From a virus (Duplodnaviria > Heunggongvirae > Uroviricota > Caudoviricetes), in IMG/VR virus record IMGVR_UViG_2855308460_000004: DNA of 64,000 bases. One strand, written 5' to 3'. Position 1 is the stretch's first letter, and every line of letters starts with the position of its first letter. Shown here in pieces: positions 865-64,000 of the stretch. Made by a program: the position numbers and the translations under genes. The notes under the pieces were generated by a model. It was not told the origin of the DNA and ran no database searches. It saw only the letters and a list, made by a program, of their open reading frames with translations.

Positions 865-941
865 GGGATGATAGCTTACTTGCGGTCCGCAGCACTGGTC
901 TGAAAAACCAGAGGGTGATGGTTCGACTCCATCTCATCTCA
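865..941 (+). tRNA. tRNA-Phe (GAA) with an enlarged 12-nt D-loop (77 nt)
   Basis: Anticodon arm ctggt-ctGAAaa-accag, T-arm gatgg-ttcgact-ccatc. Confidence 0.55.
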
Positions 942-16488: not shown

Positions 16489-16570
16489 GCTCGCATGGCG
16501 GAACAGGAAGACGCATGGGACTTAAAATCCCAGGAAGAAATTCGTGAGGGTTCGATTCCCTCTGTGAGTA
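16489..16570 (+). tRNA. tRNA-Leu (TAA), class II
   Basis: Anticodon arm tggga-ctTAAaa-tccca, long variable arm, T-arm gaggg-ttcgatt-ccctc. Confidence 0.7.
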
Positions 16571-16575
16571 CTGAT

Positions 16576-16647
16576 AGATCGATGGTGTAAATGGCAACAT
16601 GATGGTCTCCAAAACCATTGCTCAGGGTTCGAGTCCCTGTCGGTCTG
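16576..16647 (+). tRNA. tRNA-Trp (CCA)
   Basis: Anticodon arm atggt-ctCCAaa-accat. Confidence 0.8.
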
Positions 16648-16651
16648 TTAT

Positions 16652-16736
16652 ACGGCTATTGCCAAGCGGTAAGGCGGGAGGCTTTGACCCTCTTAAATAT
16701 CAATAGATTTCGCTGGTTCGAATCCAGCTAGCCGTG
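16652..16736 (+). tRNA. Class II-shaped tRNA (Ser-like D-arm, 18-nt variable region) with ambiguous anticodon (loop ctttgac: TTG or shifted TGA)
   Basis: Perfect acceptor acggcta/tagccgt; D-arm gcc-aagcggtaa-ggc; T-arm gctgg-ttcgaat-ccagc. Confidence 0.45.
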
Positions 16737-16763
16737 TTATATAACTACCAAAGTTATAATCCT

Positions 16764-16836
16764 GGCCGCATAGTCGAGTGGTTATGACGGGAGCCTTTCA
16801 AGCTTCAGGTGTCGGGTTCAATTCCCACTGCGGTCA
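16764..16836 (+). tRNA. tRNA-Glu (TTC); T-stem has mismatches
   Basis: Anticodon arm ggagc-ctTTCaa-gcttc; acceptor ggccgca/tgcggtc. Confidence 0.5.
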
Positions 16837-16862
16837 TTATATCAAAATAAGGAGATAAAAAA

Positions 16863-16898
16863 ATGAAACGAAAAACAGAACGTACGAAAACAGAATGA
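16863..16898 (+). CDS. 11-codon mini-ORF (MKRKTERTKTE) with a strong RBS inside the tRNA array
   Basis: aaggagat, 8-nt spacer, then ATG; ends 9 nt before tRNA-Lys. Confidence 0.25.
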   Translation: MKRKTERTKTE

Positions 16899-16906
16899 AA
16901 TTATAC

Positions 16907-16980
16907 GCGCCTGTAGCTCAGTTGGCTAAAGCAACCGGCTTTTAACCGGTAGACCGTGGGTTCGAGTCCCACTAGGCGCA
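16907..16980 (+). tRNA. tRNA-Lys (TTT)
   Basis: Anticodon arm accgg-ctTTTaa-ccggt. Confidence 0.8.
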
Positions 16981-16984
16981 TTTA

Positions 16985-17066
16985 GCACGTATCGCCTAGT
17001 GGTAGGGCACTCGACTTTTAATCGAGAGGCACATGGCCATCCTGGGTTCGAATCCCAGTACGTGCA
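16985..17066 (+). tRNA. tRNA-Lys(TTT)-like with an anomalous 15-nt variable region (82 nt)
   Basis: Perfect acceptor gcacgta/tacgtgc; anticodon arm ctcga-ctTTTaa-tcgag; T-arm ctggg-ttcgaat-cccag. Confidence 0.45.
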
Positions 17067-17071
17067 TTCAT

Positions 17072-17143
17072 GCATCGTAGCCCATGCGGAGTGGGAACAG
17101 TCTGCAAAACTGTCTTTGGTCGGTTCGACTCCGACACGATGCT
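17072..17143 (+). tRNA. tRNA-Cys (GCA)
   Basis: Perfect acceptor; anticodon arm acagt-ctGCAaa-actgt. Confidence 0.8.
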
Positions 17144-17412
17144 TGTGCATATTATCGCTGTGGCAAAAAAAGTACTAAAGATATCGGAAACAGCATAAAA
17201 CGACTCTTTGGTAAATAGCACAGACGCATGGAACTAACAATTGTGAAATGCGGAGCAGACAGGATAGGAAAATTGATATGCTGGTCAAAATTACTACTGT
17301 AAAAAAACATGGTATATGAAACTATATCTGCGTAAAGTGGTGAGGTTCTTTTGGATGCCCGATGAAATAAAAATAATGCTTTCGGCCAACTCCACGTAAT
17401 ATGCCCAATTAA

Positions 17413-17832
17413 TTGGAGGTTGTAATGTATCATTTGATAAAGAAACATCAATACCTTGTAATTAGTATCTTATTTATGGTTGTCTTGAGAGGAATAGAGT
17501 TTGCGTTAGTAAATACAGGACATGAATTTGAAATGGTACTCCTTGATCCTATAGCATTCGCACTGCTGTATGTTTTGCTGGCAATAAAATGTAATATTAC
17601 GGATATAAGCAAGATAACATTTACTTTAATATGTCTCATTATGATGTATATAGTAAGCGAATCAATTTTTTTAGTTCCACATTCTTGGATTACTTATAAG
17701 GATAAGGGTTTTTTTGGAGGCCTTTACACATTAATGTATTCATTAACAATCCTGTATGATTGGATATATGTAATCGTGTGTTATTTAATAACAATTATAG
17801 TTAAATTAGTCATTAATAGACTGCGTCTGTAG
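17413..17832 (+). CDS. Small polytopic membrane protein (139 aa) between the two halves of array 2; its stop lies inside the next tRNA
   Basis: RBS ggaggt; four hydrophobic segments; TAG stop at 17830–17832, inside tRNA-Lys (17823–17895). Confidence 0.5.
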   Translation: MEVVMYHLIKKHQYLVISILFMVVLRGIEFALVNTGHEFEMVLLDPIAFALLYVLLAIKCNITDISKITFTLICLIMMYIVSESIFLVPHSWITYKDKGFFGGLYTLMYSLTILYDWIYVIVCYLITIIVKLVINRLRL

Positions 17833-17895
17833 CTCAGCTGGAAGAGCAGGTGGCTCTTAACCATCAGGTCCAGGGTTCGATGCCCTGCAGGCGCA
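17823..17895 (+). tRNA. tRNA-Lys (CTT)
   Basis: Anticodon arm ggtgg-ctCTTaa-ccatc. Confidence 0.8.
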
Positions 17896-17936
17896 TTTCT
17901 ATCCAATAGGAAAGATTCATGTGAATTATAAATTTA

Positions 17937-18010
17937 GGCGCTATAGTGGAATTGGTTATCACGCCAGACTCTCAATCTGGAGACTGCGAGTTCAAGCCTC
18001 GCTAGCGTCA
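17937..18010 (+). tRNA. tRNA-Glu (CTC)
   Basis: Anticodon arm ccaga-ctCTCaa-tctgg. Confidence 0.8.
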
Positions 18011-18013
18011 TAT

Positions 18014-18093
18014 GTCCATATGGTGGAACGGAATACACGCTCGGCTAAGAACCGGGTCCCAAGAGGATGTGGGTTCAAATCCCACTATGGACA
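18014..18093 (+). tRNA. Class II tRNA with anticodon loop ctAAGaa (Leu AAG; A34 is unusual)
   Basis: Perfect acceptor gtccata/tatggac; 12-nt variable arm; T-arm gtggg-ttcaaat-cccac. Confidence 0.5.
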
Positions 18094-18097
18094 TTAT

Positions 18098-18170
18098 AGC
18101 CCAATAGTTCAACTGGAAGAACATCAGTTTCTGAATCTGAATGTTGCAGGTTCGAATCCTGCTTGGGTTG
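18098..18170 (+). tRNA. tRNA-Gln (CTG)
   Basis: Anticodon loop ttCTGaa. Confidence 0.7.
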
Positions 18171-18193
18171 TCAAACAGAGTTTTTGATAATTT

Positions 18194-18275
18194 GCCCATA
18201 TGGCGTAATGGCAGACGCTGTGGACTTAAAATCCACTGGATTCATTCCGTGCCGGTTCGAGTCCGGCTATGGGTA
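18194..18275 (+). tRNA. tRNA-Leu (TAA), second copy
   Basis: Perfect acceptor gcccata/tatgggt; anticodon arm gtgga-ctTAAaa-tccac. Confidence 0.8.
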
Positions 18276-18283
18276 TTTATTTT

Positions 18284-18355
18284 GGCATCTTCGACAAGTT
18301 GGTAAGTCGCAGGTATTTCAAACCTGAGTCACTGGTTCGAATCCAGTAGATGTCA
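18284..18355 (+). tRNA. tRNA-Glu (TTC)-like (loop atTTCaa, A32)
   Basis: Acceptor ggcatct/agatgtc; T-arm actgg-ttcgaat-ccagt. Confidence 0.5.
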
Positions 18356-18358
18356 TCA

Positions 18359-18429
18359 GCTTTCATAGTTTAAAGGTAGAACAGCTGCCTCGTAAGCAGT
18401 CAATGACAGTTCGATTCTGTCTGGAAGCT
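18359..18429 (+). tRNA. tRNA-Thr (CGT)
   Basis: Anticodon arm gctgc-ctCGTaa-gcagt; T-arm gacag-ttcgatt-ctgtc. Confidence 0.7.
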
Positions 18430-18430
18430 T

Positions 18431-18591
18431 TCCTATAGTCGCTGTGGTACGGACACAGACGCCATCGCAGGTCATAGTGGCGGAGCAAGGACGAGTCGAA
18501 ACGATGACGGTATTAGACAGTCTAAATAGAGCAAAGGCAGATTGCTTGCGTAAAGAGGTGAGTCTTAGCGGACAATTCCTCGCTATAGGAA
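18431..18591 (+). ncRNA. ~160-nt structured element between tRNAs, closed by a 9-bp stem (tcctatagt…gctatagga); unclassified
   Basis: Long-range inverted repeat plus internal hairpins (gcaaaggcagattgcttgc, cgaaacg loop); no ORF. Confidence 0.3.
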
Positions 18592-18676
18592 TACTATATA
18601 TTTTTGACCGTTTGTGGAGCTGACTTTTTGGTATGTGAGGTTAGTGGTGACAATGAGGAGGAGGGCATTGTCATTA

Positions 18677-18757
18677 GCTCGTATGATGGAAAGGAAGACA
18701 TGGCTGACTCAAAATCAGCTGCCGATAGGCGTAAGGGTTCAAATCCCTTTATGAGCA
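18677..18757 (+). tRNA. tRNA-Leu (CAA)
   Basis: Anticodon arm gctga-ctCAAaa-tcagc; class II. Confidence 0.75.
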
Positions 18758-18763
18758 TGCAAT

Positions 18764-18843
18764 GTTCATGTGGCGGAATGGAATACGCGTGCGGCTCAGA
18801 ACCGCATGGTTATACCTTGTGGGTTCGAATCCCACCATGAACA
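18764..18843 (+). tRNA. tRNA-Leu (CAG)
   Basis: Perfect acceptor; anticodon arm tgcgg-ctCAGaa-ccgca. Confidence 0.8.
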
Positions 18844-18846
18844 TCT

Positions 18847-18918
18847 GCCTTTATAGGCTAATGGACAAACTGCCTGACTTCGAATCAGGTGTTATGAGTT
18901 CGAATCTCATTAAAGGCA
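18847..18918 (+). tRNA. tRNA-Arg (TCG)
   Basis: Anticodon arm cctga-ctTCGaa-tcagg. Confidence 0.75.
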
Positions 18919-18922
18919 CTAA

Positions 18923-18994
18923 GTTCCTGTAGGCTAATGGATAAACCATCCGGCTACGAACCGGCAATTGGGAGTTCGAATCTCTTCAGGAACA
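18923..18994 (+). tRNA. tRNA-Arg (ACG)
   Basis: Perfect acceptor gttcctg/caggaac; anticodon loop ctACGaa. Confidence 0.75.
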
Positions 18995-18998
18995 TGAA

Positions 18999-19077
18999 GC
19001 CCGCATGGTGGAATGGAAGACATGCCTGACTTAGGATCAGGTGCGAAAGCGTGAGGGTTCAAATCCCTCTGTGGGTA
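18999..19077 (+). tRNA. tRNA-Leu (TAG)
   Basis: Anticodon arm cctga-ctTAGga-tcagg; variable arm tgcgaaagcgt. Confidence 0.8.
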
Positions 19078-19085
19078 TAAATAAA

Positions 19086-19108
19086 GGAGACAATTGTCTC
19101 CTTTTTTA
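19086..19108 (+). terminator. Intrinsic terminator closing tRNA array 2
   Basis: ggagacaattgtctcc + TTTTTT. Confidence 0.7.
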
Positions 19109-19196
19109 TTGAGAATCTTCATAAACAATTTTTGATTATTCATATATAAGAAAAAATAACATAATTAATTATATTAAAGACTAAAAGGAGAAAATA

Positions 19197-20147
19197 ATGA
19201 TGAGCGAAAATAAATATATCAATAAACTATTTTTAATGGACAATTTGGAATTGTTAAGGTCACTTCCATCCAATTCAATTGACTTGATTTTTTGCGATAT
19301 CCTTTATAACACTGGAAAGACATTTGATGATTATGAAGATAAACTTGGAAATGCAAAGGAGGCTATGGAATGGTATGAACCAAGATTAAAAGAGATGTGG
19401 AGGGTGATTAAGGACACAGGCGCTGTATACCTTCATTGCAATTACCGCTTGGTACACTATTTGCGTGTAAAATTGGATGAGATATTTGGCATAGATTCAT
19501 ATCGAAATGAAATTATTTGGCATCAGGGCAGTTGGAAGAATTATAGTAATAAGAAACTAGAATCCGCACATGAAAGTATGCTTTTTTACGCAAAACCAAA
19601 TCATACAATTAATGAACAGTTGGCAAGAGGATATACCGATGTTTGGACCATAGACGCCCTGAACCAAAATGATAGAATTAATGAAAAGGTTGGATATGAA
19701 GGGCAAAAACCAATTGAATATATTGAGCGGGTCATAAAAATTAGTAGCAAACCAGGTGATTTGGTTGCTGATTTCTTTTTGGGAAGTGGAACTACATGTG
19801 TTGCAGCAAAAAAGTTGGGAAGAAATTATTTAGGCTGTGATATTAATCCAAGAGCAATTGAATTAACAATGGAACGTTTGGATGATTTAGATCACAAAGA
19901 AAACATAGTAAAACATACTATGACCAACCTAAAAGACTGTCCAATTGGTTTGTTTTACTTGATTTTAGGAGATGGAACTGATCAACTTTGCGTGAAAACC
20001 GAGTATATTACCAGCAGCGGTGGTATCGAAGCATATATCGTTGAGTCAGGTGAATATCTTTCTTGTAATGGGCTGACTAGTTCATTAGAAGGATGCGAAA
20101 AAATTAAGGTAATACCAGTTAATATAACAACCTCAGAAAGGGTATAA
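19197..20147 (+). CDS. Beta-class N6A/N4C DNA methyltransferase-like protein with DILY in place of the DPPY motif
   Basis: IDLIFCDILYNTG where motif IV is expected; FxGxG SAM motif DFFLGSGTTCVAA downstream; ~100-aa C-terminal extension. Confidence 0.6.
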   Translation: MMSENKYINKLFLMDNLELLRSLPSNSIDLIFCDILYNTGKTFDDYEDKLGNAKEAMEWYEPRLKEMWRVIKDTGAVYLHCNYRLVHYLRVKLDEIFGIDSYRNEIIWHQGSWKNYSNKKLESAHESMLFYAKPNHTINEQLARGYTDVWTIDALNQNDRINEKVGYEGQKPIEYIERVIKISSKPGDLVADFFLGSGTTCVAAKKLGRNYLGCDINPRAIELTMERLDDLDHKENIVKHTMTNLKDCPIGLFYLILGDGTDQLCVKTEYITSSGGIEAYIVESGEYLSCNGLTSSLEGCEKIKVIPVNITTSERV

Positions 20148-20159
20148 GGAGAAAATAAA

Positions 20160-20378
20160 ATGAAAGCTTTATTAATTTCAACGGATGGTTATTCAATTCA
20201 AACAAAAAAGTGTGATTCTATTCAGGAAGCACAAAAAATAATGAGTGACGAATATAAAGACGCATACCCAGAAGTAAATGATGAAAGTTCAGAAGAAATG
20301 AGTTCTATTTCAGAACGTGATGCAATTTTGTATGCAAATGGAGAAAATGTATTTGTTTGGTCTATTGTAGAAATTTAA
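20160..20378 (+). CDS. Small acidic hypothetical protein (72 aa)
   Basis: ORF with RBS. Confidence 0.4.
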   Translation: MKALLISTDGYSIQTKKCDSIQEAQKIMSDEYKDAYPEVNDESSEEMSSISERDAILYANGENVFVWSIVEI

Positions 20379-20475
20379 GAGAAGGATAAAACCTTCTCTT
20401 TTTAATTCTTCAGTAAAAATAGCATTATATATAGGAACAAGAAAACAAGGAGTTGAATATAGAAAAGGAGAGAAA

Positions 20476-21183
20476 ATGGAAAAAGATATAGTTTGTGTTT
20501 GTGAAATCGCACAAGATATTGATGATTTAATAGCTCTTGATTTTTTAAATAGAAGTAATCGGTTAAAAGGAGTAGTGCTTGATCCGCCTCCCAAAACTAG
20601 AGAAGACTGGACAAGAGTTGAAAGAATCAAATCATTAGGAATTGAAATTTATAAGTCCATTCCTTATTGTAAGGCTATTTTTGTTGGAGGTGCGTTTACA
20701 AGTGTAGCGAGATATTTATTAATGAACAAAGTAGAATACATAATTGCAAATGGAGGATTTGTAGGTGCAAACATAGTACCGGAAGATAAACAGTTAAAAA
20801 AGTTTAAAGGAAAAACTCATGTCAGAACTTTTAATTTCTGCTTAGATGTGGATAGTGCTTTAAAAGTCTTAGGTAGTAAAAATGTGGAACATATTTTATT
20901 GGTTGGAAAAAATGTATGCCATGATGAAAAAAATACTTTATCAGGAATATGGAAAGATGAAAATTGGATTCGAGAATATAAAATATCTGAGACAAAACGT
21001 CTTCATGATGTCTTGGCTTATGCGGAAGGGCTTGACTACATAGATGGCATAAAAAGTAAAAGGCTAAATTACCAGCCTGTGGAACCAGAGGCTGTAGACA
21101 TAGCTGGAAATAAAACAAAATTTGGTAGTATACCGTTGGATTCCAGTCACATTCTGGCAGCAACAACATGGAAAATAGCATAA
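20476..21183 (+). CDS. Hypothetical protein (235 aa)
   Basis: ORF with RBS aaaaggagag. Confidence 0.5.
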   Translation: MEKDIVCVCEIAQDIDDLIALDFLNRSNRLKGVVLDPPPKTREDWTRVERIKSLGIEIYKSIPYCKAIFVGGAFTSVARYLLMNKVEYIIANGGFVGANIVPEDKQLKKFKGKTHVRTFNFCLDVDSALKVLGSKNVEHILLVGKNVCHDEKNTLSGIWKDENWIREYKISETKRLHDVLAYAEGLDYIDGIKSKRLNYQPVEPEAVDIAGNKTKFGSIPLDSSHILAATTWKIA

Positions 21184-21207
21184 ACTAATTATGAAAGGAA
21201 GATATGT

Positions 21208-21867
21208 ATGGATATTTATTTAATTCGTCATGGTGAATCAATCATGAACACAGGAGAAAATACAAAAATTGGAGCAATTGATAATAAAGTCTGGCTCACT
21301 GAAAAAGGGAAAGAGCAAGCAAAAAGATCAGCAGAATTTTTAAAAGAATACTTAGAATATGATTGCAATGGTACGGCTAAAACTGGAATATGGGTTAGTC
21401 CATATAGTAGAACGCGTGAAACTTTTAATATATTCAAGTCAATTATCGACTTCCAGGATATGGGTGCTGTATGTAAAGAAGATATTCTTTTAGCAGAACA
21501 GGAATTTGGATTATTTGACTCTGTACCAGAAGAAAATTGGAGTGATGAGTTTCCAAAAGAATATACGTATTACAAGAAACTGAAAGAAAACCAAGGCAAA
21601 TTTTACGCAAGGTGCCCTATGGGTGAAAGTCCAAAAGATGTTGCAATTAGGTGCCGTATATTTTTTGATACAATCTGGAGAGATTATGATAAGCATCATA
21701 TTGACAAGCTCTTTATATTTACACATGGGACAGTGCTTCGTTCTTTTGTAATGGCTTGGCAGCACTATACACCAGAATGGTATGAAGCAGAAAAAAATCC
21801 AGGCAATTGCTGGATTAGAAGGATTAGTAACAACAAGGACATGGGTTATATATACAAAGGAGAATAA
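21208..21867 (+). CDS. Histidine phosphatase superfamily protein (PGAM-like)
   Basis: N-terminal LIRHGES catalytic motif. Confidence 0.65.
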   Translation: MDIYLIRHGESIMNTGENTKIGAIDNKVWLTEKGKEQAKRSAEFLKEYLEYDCNGTAKTGIWVSPYSRTRETFNIFKSIIDFQDMGAVCKEDILLAEQEFGLFDSVPEENWSDEFPKEYTYYKKLKENQGKFYARCPMGESPKDVAIRCRIFFDTIWRDYDKHHIDKLFIFTHGTVLRSFVMAWQHYTPEWYEAEKNPGNCWIRRISNNKDMGYIYKGE

Positions 21868-21868
21868 T

Positions 21869-22681
21869 ATGTTTTTTTTACTTCAAAAGGAAGAGAAATA
21901 TAACAATCTGGATTTAGAAACATTTATCGTCAAAGATATCCTTGAGCACAATAAATTTATGGATGAATATATTTTCTATTCAAAAGATGATTTTGTTTTA
22001 GATGGACTTTGTGAATATCCAAGATATATAAAACAAGCGATTCCTGTGGGAACAATAGATTTTGTTGAAGCCTGGCTGTATCGATTCCACAAAATCGACT
22101 GTATTAACCCAATTGAGATTCCACCTTGCTTAAGAAAGGAAGAATTCCTAAAGAGAGAATATAGAATTGTAAGGAAAGAGAATCTTCCAACTGCAGGGCA
22201 AATTTTTTTTAAGGATGCATCAAGATTGAAAGTTTTTTCGGGAGAAATTAATTGCGAGACATTTTTTACAGATGATTTGTGGAAACCGAAACAGAATGAT
22301 GTTGATACAACACTTCACTTGGATCCAGAGCATTTATTTCAGGTATCAGAGATTGTGAATATAAGAAGTGAATATAGAATATATATACAGGATAATATCA
22401 TCCAGGCCATCGCAAATTATAATGGAGCTCCTTGTTTGTTGCCAGATGTTGAGTTACTGCAAAAGATGATAAATATCTATTCCATGCAGTACGATTGCCC
22501 AAAAGCTTATACAATGGATGTCGCAGTTAATGAAAAGGGAACATTCCTTTTAGAAATACATCCATGGATAGCAGTAGGATTATATAATAGTCTGTGGAGC
22601 AGAAATTTGTTATATGCATATAGAGATGGCATACAATATGTTTTGGATTTTAATACAGAGATAGAAGAGTGGAACAATTAG
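21869..22681 (+). CDS. ATP-grasp-like hypothetical protein (270 aa)
   Basis: YRIYIQDNII and MDVAVNEKGTFLLEIHPW resemble ATP-grasp C-terminal motifs; start placed at the ATG after RBS aaaggagaa. Confidence 0.35.
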   Translation: MFFLLQKEEKYNNLDLETFIVKDILEHNKFMDEYIFYSKDDFVLDGLCEYPRYIKQAIPVGTIDFVEAWLYRFHKIDCINPIEIPPCLRKEEFLKREYRIVRKENLPTAGQIFFKDASRLKVFSGEINCETFFTDDLWKPKQNDVDTTLHLDPEHLFQVSEIVNIRSEYRIYIQDNIIQAIANYNGAPCLLPDVELLQKMINIYSMQYDCPKAYTMDVAVNEKGTFLLEIHPWIAVGLYNSLWSRNLLYAYRDGIQYVLDFNTEIEEWNN

Positions 22682-22709
22682 GCGAAATATTTAATAGAGG
22701 AGAAAAACT

Positions 22710-23915
22710 GTGTTCGAGTTAAAAGGAAAATATAATAAGTGCAAAATCTTTACGGACGATGTAGATGAGGATTGTATAAGGCAATTAATTTCGCTGCTGA
22801 ATCAAGAGAGTTTACAAGACTCAATAATAAGGATTATGCCGGATGCGCATGCTGGAGCGGGATGTGTGATAGGTACAACAATGACCATTACAGATAAAGT
22901 TATTCCCAATTTAGTTGGCGTTGATATAGGTTGTGGTATGCGTACAGTGAGACTCAAAGAAAAACGGATTGAATTACCAAAATTAGATAGCATAATTCGT
23001 AAGAACATTCCTTCAGGTGGAAGTATACATGACAAATTCAATCAACTTCAATATGCAAGACGATTTGATATTGAACGCCTTCGCTGCATAGGAAAAAATA
23101 ATTGCAAAGTAAGTGAAGACATTGCTGCTTGCAGTATTGGAACACTTGGCGGCGGAAATCATTTCATTGAAGTCGACAAAGATGAAGATGGTAACTTATA
23201 TCTGGTTGTTCATACTGGAAGCCGTAGGCTTGGTAAAGATGTTGCTGAATACTATCAAAATAGGGCCTATGAGGAACTAAATTGTGTTGCCACCTATTAC
23301 AAAGAAATTAAAAAGAAGGATAGGCGGGAAAAGTGGGAAAGACCTGATCCAAGTAAATTGCCATCTGTTCCATATGAATTAGCATACTGTGAAAATGAAT
23401 TGTTGGCTGATTATATCCATGATATGGAGGTTGTGCAGGAATATGCATTTTGGAATCGGAAAGCTATTGCGAATACGATTTTAAAGGAAATGAAACTTCA
23501 TTCAGTAGAAGAATTTGAGACAGTCCACAACTATATTGATACTGAATATATGATTCTTAGAAAAGGTGCCGTCTCAGCAAGGAAAGTTGAAAAAATTTTA
23601 ATCCCGATAAATATGCGTGATGGTTCTTTACTTTGTATGGGAAAAGGAAATGAGGATTGGAATTATTCCGCACCACATGGAGCTGGCCGCTTGATGTCAA
23701 GAAGTCAGGCAAAAGAAAATATTACATTATCAGCATTCAAGAAAACAATGAAGGAGGCAGGTGTTTATAGTACATCGGTGACACGAGATACCATTGATGA
23801 GTCACCATTTGTATACAAACCCATGGAGGAGATTGTAGAAAACATAAAGGATACAGTAGAAATCATAAATGTAATTAGACCAATCTATAATTTTAAAGCT
23901 AGTGTGAAAGAATAG
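22710..23915 (+). CDS. rtcB: RtcB-family RNA ligase (GTG start)
   Basis: MPDAHAGAGCVIG and GGGNHFIEV metal-binding motifs. Confidence 0.8.
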   Translation: MFELKGKYNKCKIFTDDVDEDCIRQLISLLNQESLQDSIIRIMPDAHAGAGCVIGTTMTITDKVIPNLVGVDIGCGMRTVRLKEKRIELPKLDSIIRKNIPSGGSIHDKFNQLQYARRFDIERLRCIGKNNCKVSEDIAACSIGTLGGGNHFIEVDKDEDGNLYLVVHTGSRRLGKDVAEYYQNRAYEELNCVATYYKEIKKKDRREKWERPDPSKLPSVPYELAYCENELLADYIHDMEVVQEYAFWNRKAIANTILKEMKLHSVEEFETVHNYIDTEYMILRKGAVSARKVEKILIPINMRDGSLLCMGKGNEDWNYSAPHGAGRLMSRSQAKENITLSAFKKTMKEAGVYSTSVTRDTIDESPFVYKPMEEIVENIKDTVEIINVIRPIYNFKASVKE

Positions 23916-23997
23916 TATAAAGAGTATCTTCGGATACTTTTTATCATTTAAGGGAAATACACATTATATAGTTATAAAATTGAAAGGATGAGAATGT

Positions 23998-24162
23998 ATG
24001 AAGAATGTTTGTGAAAGATGTTCTCTTTATAAGACATGTAATGGAATTAAACATGATCCAAATGAATGTGAATGCATTGAAAATTTTTATGATCAATTTT
24101 TAGATTCTGATGATGACTTAATATGGGAGGAGAAATCGATGAATACTGTTGAAGCTGCATAA
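23998..24162 (+). CDS. Small Cys-rich protein (54 aa)
   Basis: C-x2-C…C…C-x-C pattern; below the ORF-track length cutoff. Confidence 0.3.
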   Translation: MKNVCERCSLYKTCNGIKHDPNECECIENFYDQFLDSDDDLIWEEKSMNTVEAA

Positions 24163-24381
24163 AGAGGTAGGTACAAAACTAAAAAAGCCATTATTATACT
24201 ATATGAATTCATAAGTTATACAGTTTAATTGCAGATTCCGAATATGGATTCTACATACGAAGAAAAGAAAACAATGGATGTAAATATTATATATTAAACA
24301 GGGTTATCCCTGTTTTTCTATTTTCTATCATACATAAAGAAATACATACTATCTTTAATAAGAGAAAAAGGAGAAAAATAA

Positions 24382-24687
24382 ATGAAAACTTTGATTGATA
24401 TCATTATCGGAATTTTAATATGGCAGCTTTTATCAACAATATTATTATATTGGAATGATGATTCAAACACATTCAAGATTATCTTATGCGGAATTCCATT
24501 ATTGTTTCTTTGGGTGATAGGGTATCCGTTTAGAAAGACAGATTTCTTTAACCGTATAAGATATTTTCGGTGTAGTAAGAAAATAACTGAAAACGGAAAG
24601 ACGGAAGCAAGGGAATACTACTGCACCGTACATGATGAACGCCATGTATGTGTTTATAGTCCAGGAGATAAAAAAAGTATCGGATGA
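24382..24687 (+). CDS. Small membrane protein (101 aa)
   Basis: Two TM segments; RBS aaaaggagaaaaa. Confidence 0.45.
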   Translation: MKTLIDIIIGILIWQLLSTILLYWNDDSNTFKIILCGIPLLFLWVIGYPFRKTDFFNRIRYFRCSKKITENGKTEAREYYCTVHDERHVCVYSPGDKKSIG

Positions 24688-24961
24688 GCAAGGAGTGGTT
24701 TATTCAAAATACAAGATATGTAACACGAAAAGAAATTAGAAGAGAAGACCTTAAATACTGGAAGGACTATAGACCATTAGAGGAGGAAGACAAATGTATG
24801 AAGTAAGAAAGACTGATAAAAACAGACTGTGATTAAGCGAACTAGGGAAACGAACCTGTCAAACAGATTCGTTTTTTTATGGGATTGTTAGATGACAAAA
24901 AAATAAAACACATCATAATATAAATATCTATTATAAAAAATTGCCAAAGGAGGCCAATAGC

Positions 24962-25453
24962 ATGATTAGCCCTACATATGGAAATGTGTCAATTAAACAA
25001 ATGGCTGATATTTTAAATTCCTATTATCAAAATAACAAACATTTTGAGTCTGAATTTAGCTTAACAATCGGAACAGACAGTCAAAATTTTTCATATACGA
25101 AAGTGGTTATTGTCGTAGCAATGCGTTGCATTGGTCATGGAGGAATTTACTTTTATGAAATTAGCCATGTTGATAAGATTCAAAATGTAAAGCAGAAACT
25201 TAATTTTGAGACCAGCCTAAGTTTGGACATGGCGAATTCTATCATGGACATATTTGAAGACAATCAAGATTATGAAGATCTGTACTTAAATTCAAATTTT
25301 GCAATCCATGTAGATGCTGGCCATAGTCCAGAAGGAAAAACAAAAGAAGTAATTCCTGAAATAGTGGGATGGATTAAAGCTTGTGGATATGAATGTGTCG
25401 TTAAGCCAGATTCATATACAGCAAGTTCAATTGCAGATAGAATCAGCAAATAA
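24962..25453 (+). CDS. YkuK/DUF458-like RNase H-fold protein
   Basis: IGTDSQ motif; ~165 aa; RBS aaggagg. Confidence 0.4.
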   Translation: MISPTYGNVSIKQMADILNSYYQNNKHFESEFSLTIGTDSQNFSYTKVVIVVAMRCIGHGGIYFYEISHVDKIQNVKQKLNFETSLSLDMANSIMDIFEDNQDYEDLYLNSNFAIHVDAGHSPEGKTKEVIPEIVGWIKACGYECVVKPDSYTASSIADRISK

Positions 25454-25478
25454 AAACGGATAAATCCGTTTTTATTTT
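25453..25478 (+). terminator. Intrinsic terminator
   Basis: aaacgga-taaa-tccgttt + T-run. Confidence 0.6.
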
Positions 25479-25529
25479 ACTCTCTTATTAAGTTATGATA
25501 TAATGGATAAAAGAAAATGGGAGGATAAT

Positions 25530-26279
25530 ATGCTTCTAAAAATAACAACAAAATGCAATATGAACTGCAGCCATTGCTTTAATTCTTGCTCAGCCAATGG
25601 TATTAATATGAGTTGGCCTGATATTACATCATCAATTGATTTTATTAACAGGGTGAGAGCTAAATGCTTAATATTGACAGGCGGTGAACCTACTGAACAC
25701 CCGGATTTTATAGATGTGACAAAATACATATGTAAAAATACAAAGGCTGTTATTAAAATTATTATTGCCTCAAACGGAATTTATTTTGAGAAAAATCCAT
25801 TAGTTGTGAAAGAATTATTGGCATATGATTCTCGAATTAGTATTCAAGTAACAAATGTTCCTGAATATTATCCTATTAGTATAGATGAAAATAATGAAAT
25901 ATACAAATTAGATAGAGCTTTATTATGCAGGAAAATTGAAAGCATGTATCCTCAAGGAAACGCTTTAAAGAATAATTATAAGTGGAGTGCAAAGTGTTCC
26001 AAATGTTTTAATTTTATTTCGATTATGAATCAACTTAAGAAGAAGAGCATTGAAGAAACCATATATACATTAGAATCTAATTTTAAATTCTGTACACCTC
26101 AGATTGATGCAGATGGAACTCTGAAGCCAGGAGAGAGCAGCTTGTGTAAGGGCGTTGGAACAATACATGATGACGAGGCTATATTGGTCCATAATATTTT
26201 AAATTTCAGATGTGAACAGTGTGATTTTATCAATAAAAACTTGCCTAAATCATATCAGCAACTAATAAATATAAAATAA
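25530..26279 (+). CDS. Radical SAM domain protein
   Basis: CNMNCSHC (Cx3Cx2C) and LTGGEPTEHPDF. Confidence 0.65.
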   Translation: MLLKITTKCNMNCSHCFNSCSANGINMSWPDITSSIDFINRVRAKCLILTGGEPTEHPDFIDVTKYICKNTKAVIKIIIASNGIYFEKNPLVVKELLAYDSRISIQVTNVPEYYPISIDENNEIYKLDRALLCRKIESMYPQGNALKNNYKWSAKCSKCFNFISIMNQLKKKSIEETIYTLESNFKFCTPQIDADGTLKPGESSLCKGVGTIHDDEAILVHNILNFRCEQCDFINKNLPKSYQQLINIK

Positions 26280-26325
26280 TTCGAATGACTGTTTCCTGAA
26301 TCTACTTCTATCATATTATCTAAGG

Positions 26326-26853
26326 GTGATAATAATGAAAGAAGCATGGAAACCATTGATTTATAAGGGCGTGGATTATTCAGACCGGTTTTACATTTCA
26401 AATCATGGGAATATTTACAGCACATATCGTAAACATGTTCTAAAGGGATTTACTAATAAAAAGGGATATATTCAAATTTCAGCTAGTTACCATGGAAGAA
26501 GATTACTCATTAAGATTCATCAAGCAGTAGCTGAAAATTTTGTGGACGGGTATAAGAAGGGTTTGATCGTAAATCATAAAGATGGAAATAAAACAAATAA
26601 CAAATATACTAATTTAGAATGGGTTACATCAGGAGATAATACTAGACATGCTCATGAAAACGGATTATGTTTATTCGCTAAACCAATAATATGTTTAAAT
26701 ACGGGAGATACTTTTCCATCTTTAGCAGCTGCAGCACGATGGTGTGGACTGAACGAAAAGAGTAGTTCTTTTAGGAGGTATTTCAGAGGTGAGTATAAGT
26801 TTGCTGGAAGAAATCCAGTCACAAAGGAACCTCTCCGATGGAGACTTTTATAA
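26326..26853 (+). CDS. HNH homing endonuclease (NUMOD4 + HNH_3)
   Basis: WKPLIYKGVDYSDRFYISNHGNIYS; NHKDGNKTNNKYTNLEWVT…DN. Confidence 0.75.
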   Translation: MIIMKEAWKPLIYKGVDYSDRFYISNHGNIYSTYRKHVLKGFTNKKGYIQISASYHGRRLLIKIHQAVAENFVDGYKKGLIVNHKDGNKTNNKYTNLEWVTSGDNTRHAHENGLCLFAKPIICLNTGDTFPSLAAAARWCGLNEKSSSFRRYFRGEYKFAGRNPVTKEPLRWRLL

Positions 26854-34386: not shown

Positions 34387-34470
34387 GTGACTATTACATT
34401 TATAAAGAGCTGACCAATAATCAGTTCTTTTTTTATGAAATATCATACTAAAAATAAAAAGGAGTATTTT

Positions 34471-35694
34471 ATGTTCTTAGATATATTTAAAATAAAAAAA
34501 TATTCCAACAAGCAATTTGATAGTTGGCAATTAGATGAAATCCAAAAAGGTAAGGAAGCTGGAGTTGATACTTCAATTTATGCTTATCCGCAAATTAAGC
34601 CATATGAAATGGAAGCTGCTAGAAAGGCTTTGATAATGGGAGTATCTCCAGATTGTTTAAGTTATCTTATTAAAGAATATACTGATAGGAATATAGAAAC
34701 ATATAATTTAGAAGACTTAATAAAAAACTCAATTTATGTTCTTGATATTGATTTTTTAACCACAAAATATTTACCCAAAGAGGCTCCTTCTGAAACGCAT
34801 AAGCTTTTTAAATCTGAAATTCTATATGGTGCGGTATTTGGAGATATTGCTGGAAGTTTCTATGATTTTACACTAAAATCAGATGAGCGTAAGGGTCTTA
34901 ATATAAATAATTGTATAGTTAATGGAAGTAGCTTTACTGATGACACAATTCTTACTTGTGCTACAGCTATTACCATAGGTAATAACACAATAAAAAAAGA
35001 ACAAAGAAGACCCGCTATAAGCGACTTCAATAAAAACTCTTGCTATCCATTTCTAAATAACCCTTTTAAAAGTGAATATCGAGAAAAAACACTTAAATTT
35101 CCTGGAAGTGGATATGGTGCTAATTTCTATGAATGGGCTATTTACAATAGTGATTATCCATATGGCAGTTTTGGAAATGGATCAGCAATGAGAGTTTCTC
35201 CTATTGGCGTTAAGTTTGAAAAAGTAAAAGATGTGATTCTATATGCAATAGCAAGTGCCTCTGTAACACACAATCATCCAGAAGGGATAAAAGGCGCTGC
35301 AGTCACGGCTGTTATTATTTGGATGGCAAGGAATGGGTATAGCAAAGAACAAATCTTTGCATATATGAAAAACTATTATATCAATACATATGGATTTGTT
35401 CACTTTAGTTTAGATGAATTAAAATACCCAATGCATCAATTAAAATCTGATTCAACTTGTATGTTTGCTGTACCTGCAGCTGTTATATGTTTTTATAATG
35501 CAAATTCATATGAAGAAACCATTGATAATATTTTATCATTTAATGGAAATTCTGATACTATAGGCACTATTGCAGGATCAATTGCAGCAGCCTATTATGG
35601 AGTTCCCAAAATGGTAATAGAGAAAGTAAATGAATATAAACCAGAGGGAATATTTGATGAAGCACTATCTGCTTTGAAAAAAGAAGAACCTTAA
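34471..35694 (+). CDS. ADP-ribosylglycohydrolase family protein
   Basis: GAVFGDIAGSFYDF, GSSFTDDTILT, GNGSAMRVSPIG, GNSDTIGTIAGSIAAAYYG. Confidence 0.65.
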   Translation: MFLDIFKIKKYSNKQFDSWQLDEIQKGKEAGVDTSIYAYPQIKPYEMEAARKALIMGVSPDCLSYLIKEYTDRNIETYNLEDLIKNSIYVLDIDFLTTKYLPKEAPSETHKLFKSEILYGAVFGDIAGSFYDFTLKSDERKGLNINNCIVNGSSFTDDTILTCATAITIGNNTIKKEQRRPAISDFNKNSCYPFLNNPFKSEYREKTLKFPGSGYGANFYEWAIYNSDYPYGSFGNGSAMRVSPIGVKFEKVKDVILYAIASASVTHNHPEGIKGAAVTAVIIWMARNGYSKEQIFAYMKNYYINTYGFVHFSLDELKYPMHQLKSDSTCMFAVPAAVICFYNANSYEETIDNILSFNGNSDTIGTIAGSIAAAYYGVPKMVIEKVNEYKPEGIFDEALSALKKEEP

Positions 35695-63124: not shown

Positions 63125-64000
63125 ATGCGTAAAGTATTAGTTTTAAGAGGTGCTCCTGGCGCAGGAAAGACAACATGGATTAAAGACAAGAAACTGGTTC
63201 CATATACCTTATCATTTGACAATATCAGGATGCTATATCAAAGCCCGATACAGACAATCTATGGACGAGAGTCTACTGGTCAAAAGGCAAATGCACAGGC
63301 TTATGATACTCTATTCAGTATATTGGAAGAGCGTATGAAGAACGGAGAATTCACCGTGATTGATTGTGTGAACAGCAAGAAATCACAAATTCAGAAATAT
63401 CAGGAATTAGCCTTAAAATACCGATACGAGTTGTATGTTGTTGATTTTACCACAGTCCCAATTGGCGTTGCAAAATCCAGGAACATTCATCGTTCCGCAA
63501 GAAAAAGGGTTCCAGACAGCGTTGTTGAAAATGCTTATAATGAATTCAAAGAGGAAGCACTGTCAGATAAAATAAAAGTAATTAAACCGGATGAGTTAAA
63601 TACAATATATGAAAAACCTGTAGATTTATCAGTATACAGGAAAATTCATCATATCGGAGATATCCATGGTTGCGATGAAGTATTAAAAAGGGCACTGAAT
63701 GATAATGGGAACCTACGCGAAGATGAATTCTATATCTTTCTTGGTGACTACACAGATAAAGGACCTCGTAGCGATAGAATTCTTGAATTCTTACTATCAA
63801 TCAGGAACAAGCCAAATGTAATCCTTTGTGAAGGAAACCATGAACATTGGATATGGAATTGGAGTAATGGAATAGAAGATTACTCAGAAGATTTCATGAC
63901 GAATACATTTCCTCAGCTTAATGGCATAAATAAAAAGGATATCAGAAAGCTGTATAGACAACTGAAAGAGTGTTTCATCTATACTTATAAAGGAAAGAAT
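63125..64000 (+). CDS. Pnkp-like polynucleotide kinase-phosphatase (P-loop kinase plus calcineurin-type metallophosphatase); 3' end lies beyond the window
   Basis: LRGAPGAGKTT; GDIHG, GDYTDKG, EGNHE metallophosphoesterase motifs. Absent from the ORF track only because no stop falls within the window. Confidence 0.75.
   Translation, partial: MRKVLVLRGAPGAGKTTWIKDKKLVPYTLSFDNIRMLYQSPIQTIYGRESTGQKANAQAYDTLFSILEERMKNGEFTVIDCVNSKKSQIQKYQELALKYRYELYVVDFTTVPIGVAKSRNIHRSARKRVPDSVVENAYNEFKEEALSDKIKVIKPDELNTIYEKPVDLSVYRKIHHIGDIHGCDEVLKRALNDNGNLREDEFYIFLGDYTDKGPRSDRILEFLLSIRNKPNVILCEGNHEHWIWNWSNGIEDYSEDFMTNTFPQLNGINKKDIRKLYRQLKECFIYTYKGKN

What the first reader, a model, noticed from the sequence alone, without database searches (positions are those of the whole stretch)
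21208..23915. Histidine phosphatase, ATP-grasp-like protein and RtcB RNA ligase: candidate RNA end-healing and sealing module
Three consecutive, overlapping or adjacent genes sit just downstream of the tRNA arrays. RtcB joins 3'-P or 2',3'-cyclic-P ends to 5'-OH ends. The PGAM-like phosphatase and the ATP-grasp-like protein may remodel ends or form an alternative ligation route. With MYG1 (47695–48861) and the Pnkp-like gene (63125–end), this looks like a multi-enzyme tRNA repair system against host anticodon nucleases.
Basis: partly seen in the sequence, partly recalled or inferred. Interest (0 to 1): 0.65.

Follow-up and report, generated by a model that had tools for sequence, protein, structure and literature searches.

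The report
RtcB ligase beside unrelated phosphatase–ATP-grasp pair
The three genes are real and probably transcribed together, but only RtcB is an RNA-repair enzyme; the phosphatase and the ATP-grasp protein look like a separate gene pair of the amino-acid-ligase kind, so this is an ordinary stand-alone RNA ligase next to a poorly understood pair, not a three-enzyme RNA healing-and-sealing machine.

Summary
Observation confirmed. Window 21208-23915 holds a branch-1 histidine phosphatase, an R2K-clade ATP-grasp protein (true start 21869, not 21782) and an RtcB with a complete active site. Together with an upstream nucleoside-hydrolase-like gene (20476-21183) they lie between two terminator-like hairpins, each with a Shine-Dalgarno site.

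Interpretation only partly supported. RtcB joins 3'-P/2',3'>P to 5'-OH directly and needs no end healing. The ATP-grasp protein models confidently (pLDDT 94) as a carboxylate-amine ligase: its best structural matches are LysX/ArgX, Ddl and RimK, and no polynucleotide ligase is in the top 50. The phosphatase is closest to small-molecule sugar-phosphate phosphatases.

Phosphatase-R2K adjacency is conserved only inside one clade of syntenic ~0.5-Mb, 34% GC elements of Lachnospiraceae. There RtcB is usually 3-4.5 kb away behind unrelated genes, or absent. It is missing from about 30 other R2K lineages and from cultured phages with this RtcB type.

A true healing-plus-sealing enzyme (kinase-phosphatase-ligase, Pnkp/Trl1-like) probably starts at 63125. 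Hence two independent RNA ligation routes at genome level, but no three-gene module here. R2K genes show a weak tendency to sit among tRNA and translation genes, which leaves a small novel possibility open.

The parts
20377..20400 (+). terminator-like hairpin that closes the upstream unit (methylase plus 72-aa ORF)
   Evidence: 9-bp stem followed by a T run.
20476..21183 (+). short (235 aa) nucleoside-hydrolase-like gene, first gene of the putative four-gene transcription unit
   Evidence: Weak Pfam IU_nuc_hydro hit, E=0.009. Many homologs carry PF01156. D14, D16, D17, N120, H177 and D178 are invariant. AF2 model pLDDT 94.9. Best PDB fold matches are ribonucleoside hydrolases, TM 0.58-0.65.
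21208..21867 (+). branch-1 histidine phosphatase (PGAM-like), 219 aa
   Evidence: PF00300, 9e-23. The R7-H8-G9, R68, E97 and H173-G174 catalytic set is conserved. Profile search of the PDB gives fructose-2,6-bisphosphatase at 7e-9, then PspA and PhoE. A Shine-Dalgarno site (AAAGGAAG) precedes the ATG.
21869..22681 (+). R2K-clade ATP-grasp ligase, 270 aa (the longest ORF starts at 21782, but the true start is 21869)
   Evidence: PF18299 57 bits and PF14243 40.9 bits. Start supported by homolog N-termini and AAGGAG. K115, K121, E168, R170, D217, E229 and H231 are invariant in 67 sequences. AF2 pLDDT 94.2. Foldseek best matches are ArgX/LysX, Ddl, RimK and PsnB.
22710..23915 (+). RtcB RNA 3'-phosphate/5'-OH ligase, 401 aa, GTG start
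   Evidence: PF01139, 4.5e-65. phrog_1075, 1e-136. Active-site residues align with P. horikoshii RtcB. Shine-Dalgarno site AGAGGAG.
23917..23944 (+). 12-bp UUCG hairpin plus U-rich tail directly after the RtcB stop; likely intrinsic terminator of the unit
   Evidence: dG -11.6 kcal/mol, z = -5.25 against shuffles. Sequence.
63125..64000 (+). 5' part of a Pnkp-like gene: polynucleotide-kinase-type P-loop plus metallophosphatase. It is a separate locus, not part of the cassette, and is probably a complete healing-and-sealing enzyme.
   Evidence: AAA_33 3.9e-15 and Metallophos 5e-14. A 742-aa homolog in L007, 50% identical over 290 aa, matches the C. thermocellum Pnkp kinase (4gp7), lambda-type phosphatases and fungal Trl1 ligase domains (9qw7, 1.7e-13).
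16489..19077 (+). second tRNA array (19 tRNA genes), 2.1 kb upstream of the phosphatase gene; likely substrates for RtcB
   Evidence: ARAGORN and Rfam.

Best explanation
The window comes from a ~0.5-Mb, 34% GC extrachromosomal element or huge phage found in Enterocloster and Hungatella. Four co-directional genes (nucleoside-hydrolase-like, histidine phosphatase, R2K ATP-grasp ligase, RtcB) are probably transcribed as one unit. Functionally they are two things placed side by side.

(1) RtcB is a self-sufficient sealing enzyme. This rests on conserved catalytic residues and family membership. The mechanism is inferred from established RtcB chemistry: GTP/Mn2+-dependent guanylylation of His323, transfer to an RNA 3'-phosphate, then attack by the 5'-OH. 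It would rejoin tRNAs or rRNA cut by metal-independent ribonucleases, with no kinase or phosphatase step.

(2) The phosphatase-R2K pair is a separate unit, tightly coupled (1-8 nt apart) and conserved only within this clade. R2K is shown by Pfam and fold to be a classical ATP-grasp carboxylate-amine ligase of the LysX/ArgX/RimK type. It is inferred to add an amino acid to a carboxylate of a protein, most plausibly a component of the translation apparatus. The phosphatase is inferred to dephosphorylate a small phospho-metabolite or phosphoprotein rather than an RNA end.

The direct adjacency to RtcB results from local gene-order change in this particular element. RNA end healing plus ATP-dependent sealing is most likely provided elsewhere by the Pnkp/Trl1-like gene that starts at 63125.
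For: - RtcB is intact: D72/C75, N150/H151, H168 and H323 align with the P. horikoshii catalytic residues, and H273/N274 are invariant.
- The same RtcB type stands alone, with no phosphatase or ATP-grasp neighbour, in phiCD211 and Bacillus phage Kioshi.
- R2K: Pfam scores above cutoff. AF2 pLDDT 94. The top 50 PDB matches are all amide-forming ATP-grasp enzymes or synapsin, with no polynucleotide ligase. The literature predicts peptide ligation on proteins (PMC4431377; PMC7824862).
- Phosphatase: nearest solved relatives are fructose-2,6-bisphosphatase, PspA and PhoE.
- Synteny: phosphatase and R2K are adjacent in the window, L002, L021/22, L023, L024/25 and L046/47. RtcB is adjacent only in the window, L046 and L047. 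It lies 3-4.5 kb away behind HPF, choline-binding and endonuclease genes in L021, L023 and L024, and is absent within 8 kb in L002.
- Of 32 R2K lineages, only two related ones have the phosphatase or RtcB nearby.
- The phosphatase occurs without R2K or RtcB in L018, L019 and L030-L038.
- No phosphatase-R2K fusion appears among the best 150 of 2216 family representatives.
- Operon signals.
- Pnkp/Trl1-like tri-domain homolog.
Against: - Co-transcription with RtcB, if real, could reflect a shared task.
- R2K homologs in other lineages sit next to a CCA-adding enzyme (L011, 6-nt gap), near PTH2 (L003), Thg1 (L005, L073), an AlaRS fragment (L014) and 2-5 kb downstream of tRNA arrays. An RNA- or tRNA-directed role is therefore not excluded.
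- Phosphatase homologs are found fused to a HAD_SAK_2 ('RNA repair') domain (P0215), next to PTH2 (L036) and next to RNase HII (L031).
- No substrate of either protein has been tested. The proposed protein target is inference by analogy with RimK, LysX and Cdc123.
Confidence: 0.6

Rival explanations
1. The three proteins form one RNA end-healing and sealing module: the histidine phosphatase trims RNA-end phosphates, the ATP-grasp protein is an alternative RNA ligase or end activator, and RtcB seals.
For: - Tight packing, shared strand and flanking terminators.
- Location 2.1 kb from a tRNA array.
- A HAD_SAK_2 fusion of a phosphatase homolog.
- tRNA-related neighbours of R2K and of the phosphatase in other lineages.
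Against: - RtcB uses 3'-P or >P with 5'-OH directly, so a 3'-phosphatase would destroy its substrate (established chemistry).
- The R2K fold matches amide ligases only, and no polynucleotide-ligase family matched it in the Pfam or PDB sequence searches.
- The phosphatase is nearest to sugar-phosphate phosphatases.
- The linkage is not conserved outside one syntenic clade.
- Phage RtcBs stand alone.
- A dedicated kinase-phosphatase-ligase gene probably exists at 63125.
Confidence: 0.08
2. The nucleoside-hydrolase-like protein, the phosphatase and R2K form a ribosyl-nucleotide, NAD or ADP-ribose processing cassette. The phosphatase would remove a phosphate from a nucleotide-like compound, the hydrolase would cleave the N-glycosidic bond, and R2K would act on an ADP-ribosylation-linked target. 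RtcB would be merely co-located.
For: - The hydrolase fold and active-site residues are conserved.
- Its distant homologs sit beside NADAR, NAMPT and ADP-ribosylglycohydrolase genes in other huge-phage contigs.
- R2K.2/R2K.3 genes flank an ADP-ribosylglycohydrolase in Firmicutes (PMC4431377).
- An ADP_ribosyl_GH gene lies at 34435-35694 (phrog_6572 4 e-40 for that ORF; Pfam ADP_ribosyl_GH 8e-31 in the batch that contained it).
- The best sub-threshold NCBIfam hit of the phosphatase is alpha-ribazole phosphatase CobC (63.5 bits, cutoff 162.9).
- A PRPP-synthetase-like gene lies 3 kb from R2K in L009.
Against: - The hydrolase gene is missing next to the pair in L002, L021 and L047.
- Its distant homologs are not linked to the phosphatase or R2K.
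- All links are by neighbourhood only, and some span several kb.
Confidence: 0.17
3. There is no functional relation at all. Four unrelated accessory genes are packed head to tail, as is usual in large mobile elements and phages, and phosphatase-R2K adjacency reflects only shared ancestry of closely syntenic genomes.
For: - All genomes that keep the pair also keep the surrounding order (SecY, ClpP, methylase, HPF).
- A syntenic relative (L019) has the phosphatase directly followed by HPF, with no R2K.
- No fusion proteins were found.
Against: - The 1-8 nt spacing, with the Shine-Dalgarno site inside the upstream gene, is kept while flanking genes change, down to 57-59% R2K identity.
- The phosphatase gene is duplicated in place in L021 without breaking the junction.
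Confidence: 0.15

Closest known systems
RtcB RNA ligase (E. coli RtcB, P. horikoshii RtcB; phage 'tRNA splicing ligase', phrog_1075)
   Same: Pfam RtcB over residues 40-396. All aligned metal ligands and the GMP-histidine are present. It is the short ~400-aa form, as in Bacillus, Listeria and C. difficile phages.
   Different: Below the NCBIfam cutoffs for the PRK09588 and PrfH-coupled RtcB2 equivalogs (138 bits against 407; 103 against 272). No RtcA, RtcR, PrfH or Archease partner was seen in the window.
R2K clade of ATP-grasp enzymes (Cdc123/R2K.1, R2K.2, R2K.3; Burroughs, Zhang and Aravind 2015)
   Same: Matches the R2K_2 and R2K_3 models above cutoff. Both lysines (K115, K121) are invariant. 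ATP-grasp fold. Occurs in large phages, as already reported for R2K.2.
   Different: It belongs to a subfamily that is paired with a histidine phosphatase in one clade and often lies in tRNA or translation gene islands; neither feature turned up in the term searches of the two papers consulted. The third metal-site position is His (E229-x-H231) rather than the ExN motif that PMC4431377 calls standard.
RimK / LysX / ArgX protein-C-terminus amino-acid ligases
   Same: Best structural matches: ArgX 3vpb E=2e-8, LysX 3vpd TM 0.57, RimK 5zk6 and 5zct. Single-domain proteins of ~270-300 aa.
   Different: Only 8-14% identity and no sequence-level PDB hit. No LysW-like carrier or S6-like target has been identified.
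T4 Pnkp + Rnl1, and bacterial Pnkp/Hen1 healing-and-sealing pathways
   Same: The genome does have a kinase plus metallophosphatase gene (with a Trl1-like ligase domain in its homolog) at 63125-end. This is the true counterpart of these systems.
   Different: The 21208-23915 trio has no polynucleotide kinase, no HAD, metallophos or 2H end-healing domain, and no polynucleotide-ligase domain by Pfam, sequence or fold search. No Hen1 was found in the window.
Branch-1 histidine phosphatases (fructose-2,6-bisphosphatase domain, PhoE, PspA, CobC)
   Same: RHG...R...E...HG catalytic core. ~215 aa, single domain.
   Different: Below every NCBIfam equivalog cutoff. Forms its own well-populated family in Clostridia and huge phages (498 hits), with an invariant C-terminal NPxNC motif. 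Substrate unknown.

Membership tests
RtcB RNA ligase family | Pfam PF01139 match above the gathering score over most of the protein | tested here: met
   221 bits against cutoff 27, residues 40-396.
RtcB RNA ligase family | Metal-binding Asp/Cys/His set and the histidine that is guanylylated (P. horikoshii D95, C98, N202, H203, H234, H329, H404) | tested here: met
   D72, C75, N150, H151, H168 and H323 align directly. H273-N274 was assigned to H329 by motif and spacing only, and is invariant in six homologs.
RtcB RNA ligase family | GTP/Mn2+-dependent joining of 3'-P or 2',3'>P ends to 5'-OH ends | not testable with these tools
   Needs biochemistry.
R2K clade ATP-grasp (R2K.2/R2K.3) | Match to R2K_2 or R2K_3 above the gathering score | tested here: met
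   PF18299 57 bits (cutoff 26.2); PF14243 40.9 bits (cutoff 26.3).
R2K clade ATP-grasp (R2K.2/R2K.3) | Two conserved lysines in the RAGNYA strand region, plus acidic Mg/ATP ligands | tested here: met
   K115, K121, E168, R170, D217, E229 and H231 are invariant in 67 sequences. Family definition from PMC4431377.
R2K clade ATP-grasp (R2K.2/R2K.3) | ATP-grasp three-dimensional fold | tested here: met
   AF2 pLDDT 94.2, pTM 0.89. 247 PDB matches at E<=1e-3, led by ArgX, Ddl, LysX and RimK.
Polynucleotide (RNA/DNA) ligase, as an 'alternative ligation route' for the ATP-grasp protein | Covalent nucleotidyltransferase domain or fold related to Rnl1, Rnl2, Trl1 or DNA ligases | tested here: not met
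   No RNA or DNA ligase among the top 50 fold matches. No Pfam ligase family. No PDB sequence hit. In contrast, the L007 homolog of the Pnkp-like gene does match Trl1 ligase domains.
Histidine phosphatase superfamily, branch 1 | PF00300 above cutoff and the RHG / Arg / Glu / His catalytic residues | tested here: met
   81.4 bits against 21.7. R7, H8, G9, R68, E97 and H173 are conserved.
RNA end-healing phosphatase (T4 Pnkp HAD, Pnkp metallophosphatase, 2H CPDase) | Membership of a family with demonstrated RNA 2'/3'-phosphate or cyclic-phosphate esterase activity | tested here: not met
   Only His_Phos_1 matches. Nearest solved relatives are small-molecule phosphatases. To my knowledge no RNA-end activity is known for this superfamily. 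A HAD_SAK_2 fusion of a homolog is only suggestive.
Conserved three-gene RNA repair operon (phosphatase-R2K-RtcB) | The same linkage in phylogenetically separate genomes | tested here: not met
   Direct adjacency occurs only in the window, L046 and L047 (93-97% R2K identity). It is broken or absent in L002, L021, L023 and L024. It is absent in 30 of 32 R2K lineages and around 12 viral phosphatase homologs.
Nucleoside hydrolase (IU_nuc_hydro) for ORF 20476-21183 | Fold plus the N-terminal Asp cluster and the His-Asp near the C-terminal part | tested here: inconclusive
   Pfam E=0.009, below cutoff, but many homologs carry PF01156. D14, D16, D17, H177 and D178 are invariant. Best fold hits are ribonucleoside hydrolases, E=2.7e-4, TM 0.65. 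The protein is ~70 aa shorter than characterised enzymes.

The most novel reading that the evidence does not exclude
The phosphatase-R2K pair, and this R2K subfamily more widely, may be a new accessory of tRNA or translation maintenance in huge phages and giant elements. For example, it could be an ATP-grasp enzyme that aminoacylates or tags a tRNA-handling protein (an EF-Tu-like factor, a ribosomal protein, or RtcB itself), or even an RNA-linked carboxylate. The phosphatase would reset a phosphorylated intermediate, and the pair would work together with RtcB, CCA-adding enzyme, Thg1 and PTH2 to keep the tRNA pool usable under host nuclease attack.
Probability: 0.12. Interest if true: 0.7.

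Novelty: new member of a known kind. Interest (0 to 1): 0.3.

Why it matters
As it stands, little changes. RtcB genes in large phages and mobile elements are already known and are assumed to reseal nuclease-cut tRNA. R2K ATP-grasp genes in large phages have been noted since 2015.

The value of this check is mostly negative. It stops a plausible-looking 'three-enzyme repair module' from being propagated. It also points to the real healing-and-sealing candidate at 63125.

Two leads are worth keeping:
- This R2K subfamily has a mild but repeated tendency to lie among tRNA and translation genes. That fits the Cdc123 precedent of an ATP-grasp protein acting on a tRNA-binding GTPase, and it could guide a first biochemical test of a family with no known substrate.
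- The host element itself is unusual: ~0.5 Mb, 34% GC, SecY, signal peptidase, ClpP, HPF, a sigma factor and more than 37 tRNAs, found in cultured Enterocloster and Hungatella. It seems to be undescribed.

Tried and rejected
- Viral-contig scan with the single R2K protein: no relatives found. It worked only with an alignment.
It worked with 8 sequences.
- phmmer of the phosphatase against the PDB: no hit. A profile search was needed.
- R2K and hydrolase-like profiles against PDB sequences: nothing significant. Fold search was needed.
- Burroughs and Aravind 2016 (RNA repair systems) could not be read because it is not held.
- Literature search for functional work on DUF4343 / R2K_2 / R2K_3: nothing beyond the 2015 paper.
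- PADLOC: no defence-system match for any cassette protein. Only the downstream radical SAM gene resembles pVip weakly.
- Search for the element in INPHARED phages and PLSDB plasmids: only RtcB-level similarity in phages, and none in plasmids. SecY in IMG/VR: none.
- Idea that RtcB serves tRNA splicing here: the over-long tRNA-Lys and tRNA-Gln carry variable-arm insertions, not anticodon-loop introns. Rejected for those genes.
- Idea that the downstream radical SAM gene (25503-26279) belongs to the unit, for instance in queuine salvage: a terminator and several ORFs separate it, there was no QueE/QueL-level match, and the radical SAM genes near other R2K genes are not homologous to it.
- Rosetta-stone test for a phosphatase-R2K fusion: none among the best 150 representatives. 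The three longer proteins have unrelated C-terminal extensions.
- Enrichment of tRNA-related genes near R2K: 8 of about 24 lineages within 3 kb, against about 5 hits at 3-10 kb. That is roughly a two-fold density difference, judged suggestive only.
Full report
**1. What is there**

The + strand of window 19000-26500 carries a run of closely spaced genes. Pfam assigns them as follows:
- 21208-21867: His_Phos_1 (9e-23).
- 21782-22681: the R2K ATP-grasp models, R2K_2 at 57 bits and R2K_3 at 40.9 bits, both above their cutoffs.
- 22710-23915: RtcB (4.5e-65).

PHROGs places the last gene in phrog_1075, 'tRNA splicing ligase', at 1e-136. The other two fall in function-unknown phage families.

The ATP-grasp ORF is over-called at its 5' end. 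About 120 homologs are 254-303 aa long, cover ~90% of the query and start MFFLLQKE. An AAGGAG site lies 7 nt before the ATG at 21869. The gene is therefore 21869-22681 and begins 1 nt after the phosphatase stop codon.

The gene just upstream (20476-21183) is a short nucleoside-hydrolase-like protein:
- Pfam gives only a weak hit.
- Many of its 67 homologs carry PF01156.
- An Asp cluster and a His-Asp pair are invariant.
- A confident model (pLDDT 94.9) matches ribonucleoside hydrolases best.

Each of the three downstream genes has its own Shine-Dalgarno site. A terminator-like hairpin precedes the set at 20377-20400. A 12-bp UUCG hairpin with a U tail follows the RtcB stop (dG -11.6, z -5.25). 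In this genome the four genes therefore look like one transcription unit. The last tRNA of the second array ends at 19077, 2.1 kb upstream.

**2. Where the window comes from**

The exact proteins are annotated in an Enterocloster aldenensis isolate assembly (contig QSGP01000005.1, 472 kb). Near-identical ones occur on a 396-kb Hungatella hathewayi contig and on metagenomic contigs of up to 562 kb.

The window is 34% G+C. It encodes 37 tRNAs, SecY, signal peptidase, ClpP, a ribosome hibernation factor, a sigma factor, LytR, TelA, an OpuA transporter, RecD2, TnpB and an HNH homing endonuclease. It also has many ORFs with no family.

It has no counterpart in the phage or plasmid collections. I could not decide between a huge phage and a giant plasmid.

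**3. RtcB**

Alignment with P. horikoshii RtcB places these residues:
- D72/C75 on D95/C98.
- N150/H151 on N202/H203.
- H168 on H234.
- H323 on the guanylylated H404.

The HN motif (H273-N274) that I equate with H329 is invariant in six relatives.

It falls below the NCBIfam cutoffs for the PRK09588 and PrfH-coupled subfamilies. It is closest to the RtcBs of Bacillus, Listeria and C. difficile phages.

By established chemistry, RtcB joins 3'-phosphate or 2',3'-cyclic phosphate ends to 5'-OH ends directly. It needs no kinase or phosphatase. In phiCD211 and Kioshi the gene has no phosphatase or ATP-grasp neighbour.

**4. The ATP-grasp protein**

The second refutation criterion also fails, because the ATP-grasp similarity is robust. 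The kind of ATP-grasp matters, however.

- The R2K clade (Cdc123, R2K.2, R2K.3) was defined as predicted peptide or amino-acid ligases that modify proteins. R2K.2 was already noted in caudate phages (PMC4431377) and in jumbo phages (PMC7824862).
- The two lysines and the acidic ligands are invariant in 67 sequences.
- The AF2 model (pLDDT 94.2) finds ArgX/LysX, D-Ala-D-Ala ligase, RimK, RiPP macrocyclases, PylC and synapsin.
- No RNA or DNA ligase appears in the first 50 matches.

The idea of an 'alternative ligation route' for RNA is therefore not supported.

**5. The phosphatase**

The RHG/Arg/Glu/His core is intact. A profile of 23 homologs finds the fructose-2,6-bisphosphatase domain first (7e-9), then phosphoserine phosphatase PspA and PhoE. 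The best sub-threshold NCBIfam hit is alpha-ribazole phosphatase. Nothing links the superfamily to RNA ends, and removing a 3'-phosphate would undo RtcB's substrate.

Hints in the other direction exist but are thin:
- One homolog is fused to a HAD_SAK_2 domain.
- Others sit next to PTH2 (L036) or RNase HII (L031).

**6. Is the linkage conserved?**

I collected R2K contexts from exact-protein look-ups, IMG/VR, GTDB genomes and metagenomes. I then compared all ORFs with a panel of window and neighbour proteins. Single-linkage clustering at 65% identity gives 32 R2K lineages.

- **Phosphatase-R2K.** Adjacency (0-8 nt) occurs only in the window lineage and in L021/22. These two are related and share the surrounding order SecY, ClpP, methylase, phosphatase, R2K, HPF.
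- **RtcB.** It is directly adjacent only in the window and its 93-97% identical copies (L046, L047). In L023, L024 and L021 it lies 3-4.5 kb downstream behind HPF, a choline-binding protein and other genes. In L002 (79% R2K identity) it is absent within 8 kb.
- **Phosphatase without R2K.** A syntenic relative (L019) has the phosphatase followed directly by HPF with no R2K. Phosphatase homologs in 416-459-kb viral contigs have neither partner.
- **Fusions.** No phosphatase-R2K fusion exists among the best 150 of 2216 family representatives.

The three-gene arrangement is thus a local feature of one element, not a conserved module. The phosphatase-R2K junction is the only part that holds while its flanks change.

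**7. What the other R2K neighbourhoods say**

- In L011 a CCA-adding enzyme follows R2K after 6 nt. In L075 one lies 2 kb away.
- In L003 PTH2 is two genes downstream.
- In L005, L010, L071 and L072 Thg1 and an Rnl-type ligase lie 2.7-4.8 kb downstream. In L073 Thg1 is 1 kb away.
- In L014 an AlaRS fragment and a second R2K_3 gene follow.
- tRNA arrays end 2-5 kb upstream of R2K in four lineages.
- An RNaseH_like (PF04308) gene lies within 0.4-5.4 kb in three lineages.

About 8 of about 24 lineages with usable flanks have a tRNA or translation gene within 3 kb. The density is only about twice that at 3-10 kb. I read this as a weak tendency for this R2K subfamily to sit in translation-related islands. 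That is compatible with a translation-apparatus target, as proposed for the clade, and it does not show an RNA-end function.

**8. The rest of the proposed 'system'**

- MYG1 (47695-48861) is confirmed by Pfam. It is 24 kb away and is not a known tRNA-repair component.
- The gene starting at 63125 has a P-loop kinase and a metallophosphatase. Its 742-aa homolog in L007 is 50% identical over the 290 aa present in the window. That homolog adds a C-terminal domain matching fungal Trl1 ligase domains, and its kinase matches C. thermocellum Pnkp. This is the real candidate for healing plus ATP-dependent sealing.
- No Archease or Hen1 was seen in more than 50 window ORFs.
- The over-long tRNA-Lys and tRNA-Gln have variable-arm insertions, not introns.

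At genome level the element plausibly has two independent RNA ligation routes.

**9. Verdict**

- **Best explanation (confidence ~0.6).** A stand-alone RtcB has been brought next to a separate phosphatase-R2K pair by local rearrangement. The pair's chemistry is amide ligation plus phosphate hydrolysis on a protein or small-molecule substrate.
- **Novelty.** New member of known kinds.
- **Interest.** 0.3, mostly for the unexplained pair and for the unusual host element.

Noticed in passing
whole window (1-64000): The window belongs to a ~0.47-0.56 Mb, 34% G+C element present in cultured Enterocloster aldenensis and Hungatella hathewayi assemblies and in many gut metagenomes. It encodes SecY, signal peptidase S26, ClpP, HPF, a sigma-70 factor, LytR, TelA, an OpuA transporter and 37 tRNAs in 64 kb. 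It has no match in INPHARED or PLSDB. It differs from the 'Hodor' megaplasmids, which are 44-47% GC. Whether it is a phage or a plasmid is unresolved.
   Followed up: partly
window 16652-16736 and 16985-17066: tRNA-Gln(UUG) and tRNA-Lys(UUU) carry 16- and 11-nt insertions in the variable region, making them class-II-like in length. These isoacceptors are normally class I. The insertions are not anticodon-loop introns.
   Followed up: partly
window 865-941; 1330-1418: Rfam finds a tRNA at 865-941 that ARAGORN missed. ARAGORN's 89-nt 'tRNA-Ile(tat)' at 1330-1418, and its calls at 1255-1329 and 17072-17143, do not reach the Rfam tRNA gathering score.
   Followed up: no
window 20476-21183; L026 7001-7717; L028 7001-7756: A family of short (~235 aa) nucleoside-hydrolase-like proteins with a conserved active-site constellation. 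In other huge-phage-like contigs its members lie near NADAR, NAMPT and ADP-ribosylglycohydrolase genes.
   Followed up: partly
window 24941-25453; L086 1446-2102; L010 4005-4496: An RNaseH_like (PF04308) gene lies within 0.4-5.4 kb of the R2K gene in three separate R2K lineages.
   Followed up: no
window 34435-35694: ADP-ribosylglycohydrolase gene (phrog_6572 at 1.9e-40 for this ORF; a Pfam ADP_ribosyl_GH hit at 8e-31 in the 28-ORF batch that contained it). R2K.2 and R2K.3 genes flank such a gene in some Firmicutes according to PMC4431377.
   Followed up: no
window 3126-4370: TnpB / IS605 OrfB-type gene (OrfB_IS605 plus the Cas12f-like TNB domain) directly after the first tRNA array.
   Followed up: no
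L024 13234-15486: The RtcB homolog in a related element is 750 aa, against 401 aa here, with 67% identity over 384 aa. It probably contains an intein.
   Followed up: no
L021 1721-3032: Tandem duplication of the histidine phosphatase gene directly upstream of R2K in a related element; the copies are 67% and 45% identical to the window protein. One homolog (P0130, L019) has lost the RH of the RHG motif.
   Followed up: no
window 25503-26279: The radical SAM gene downstream of the cassette has weak similarity to prokaryotic viperins (PADLOC pVip 2e-10; NCBIfam viperin_w_prok 34.9 bits, cutoff 180).
   Followed up: no
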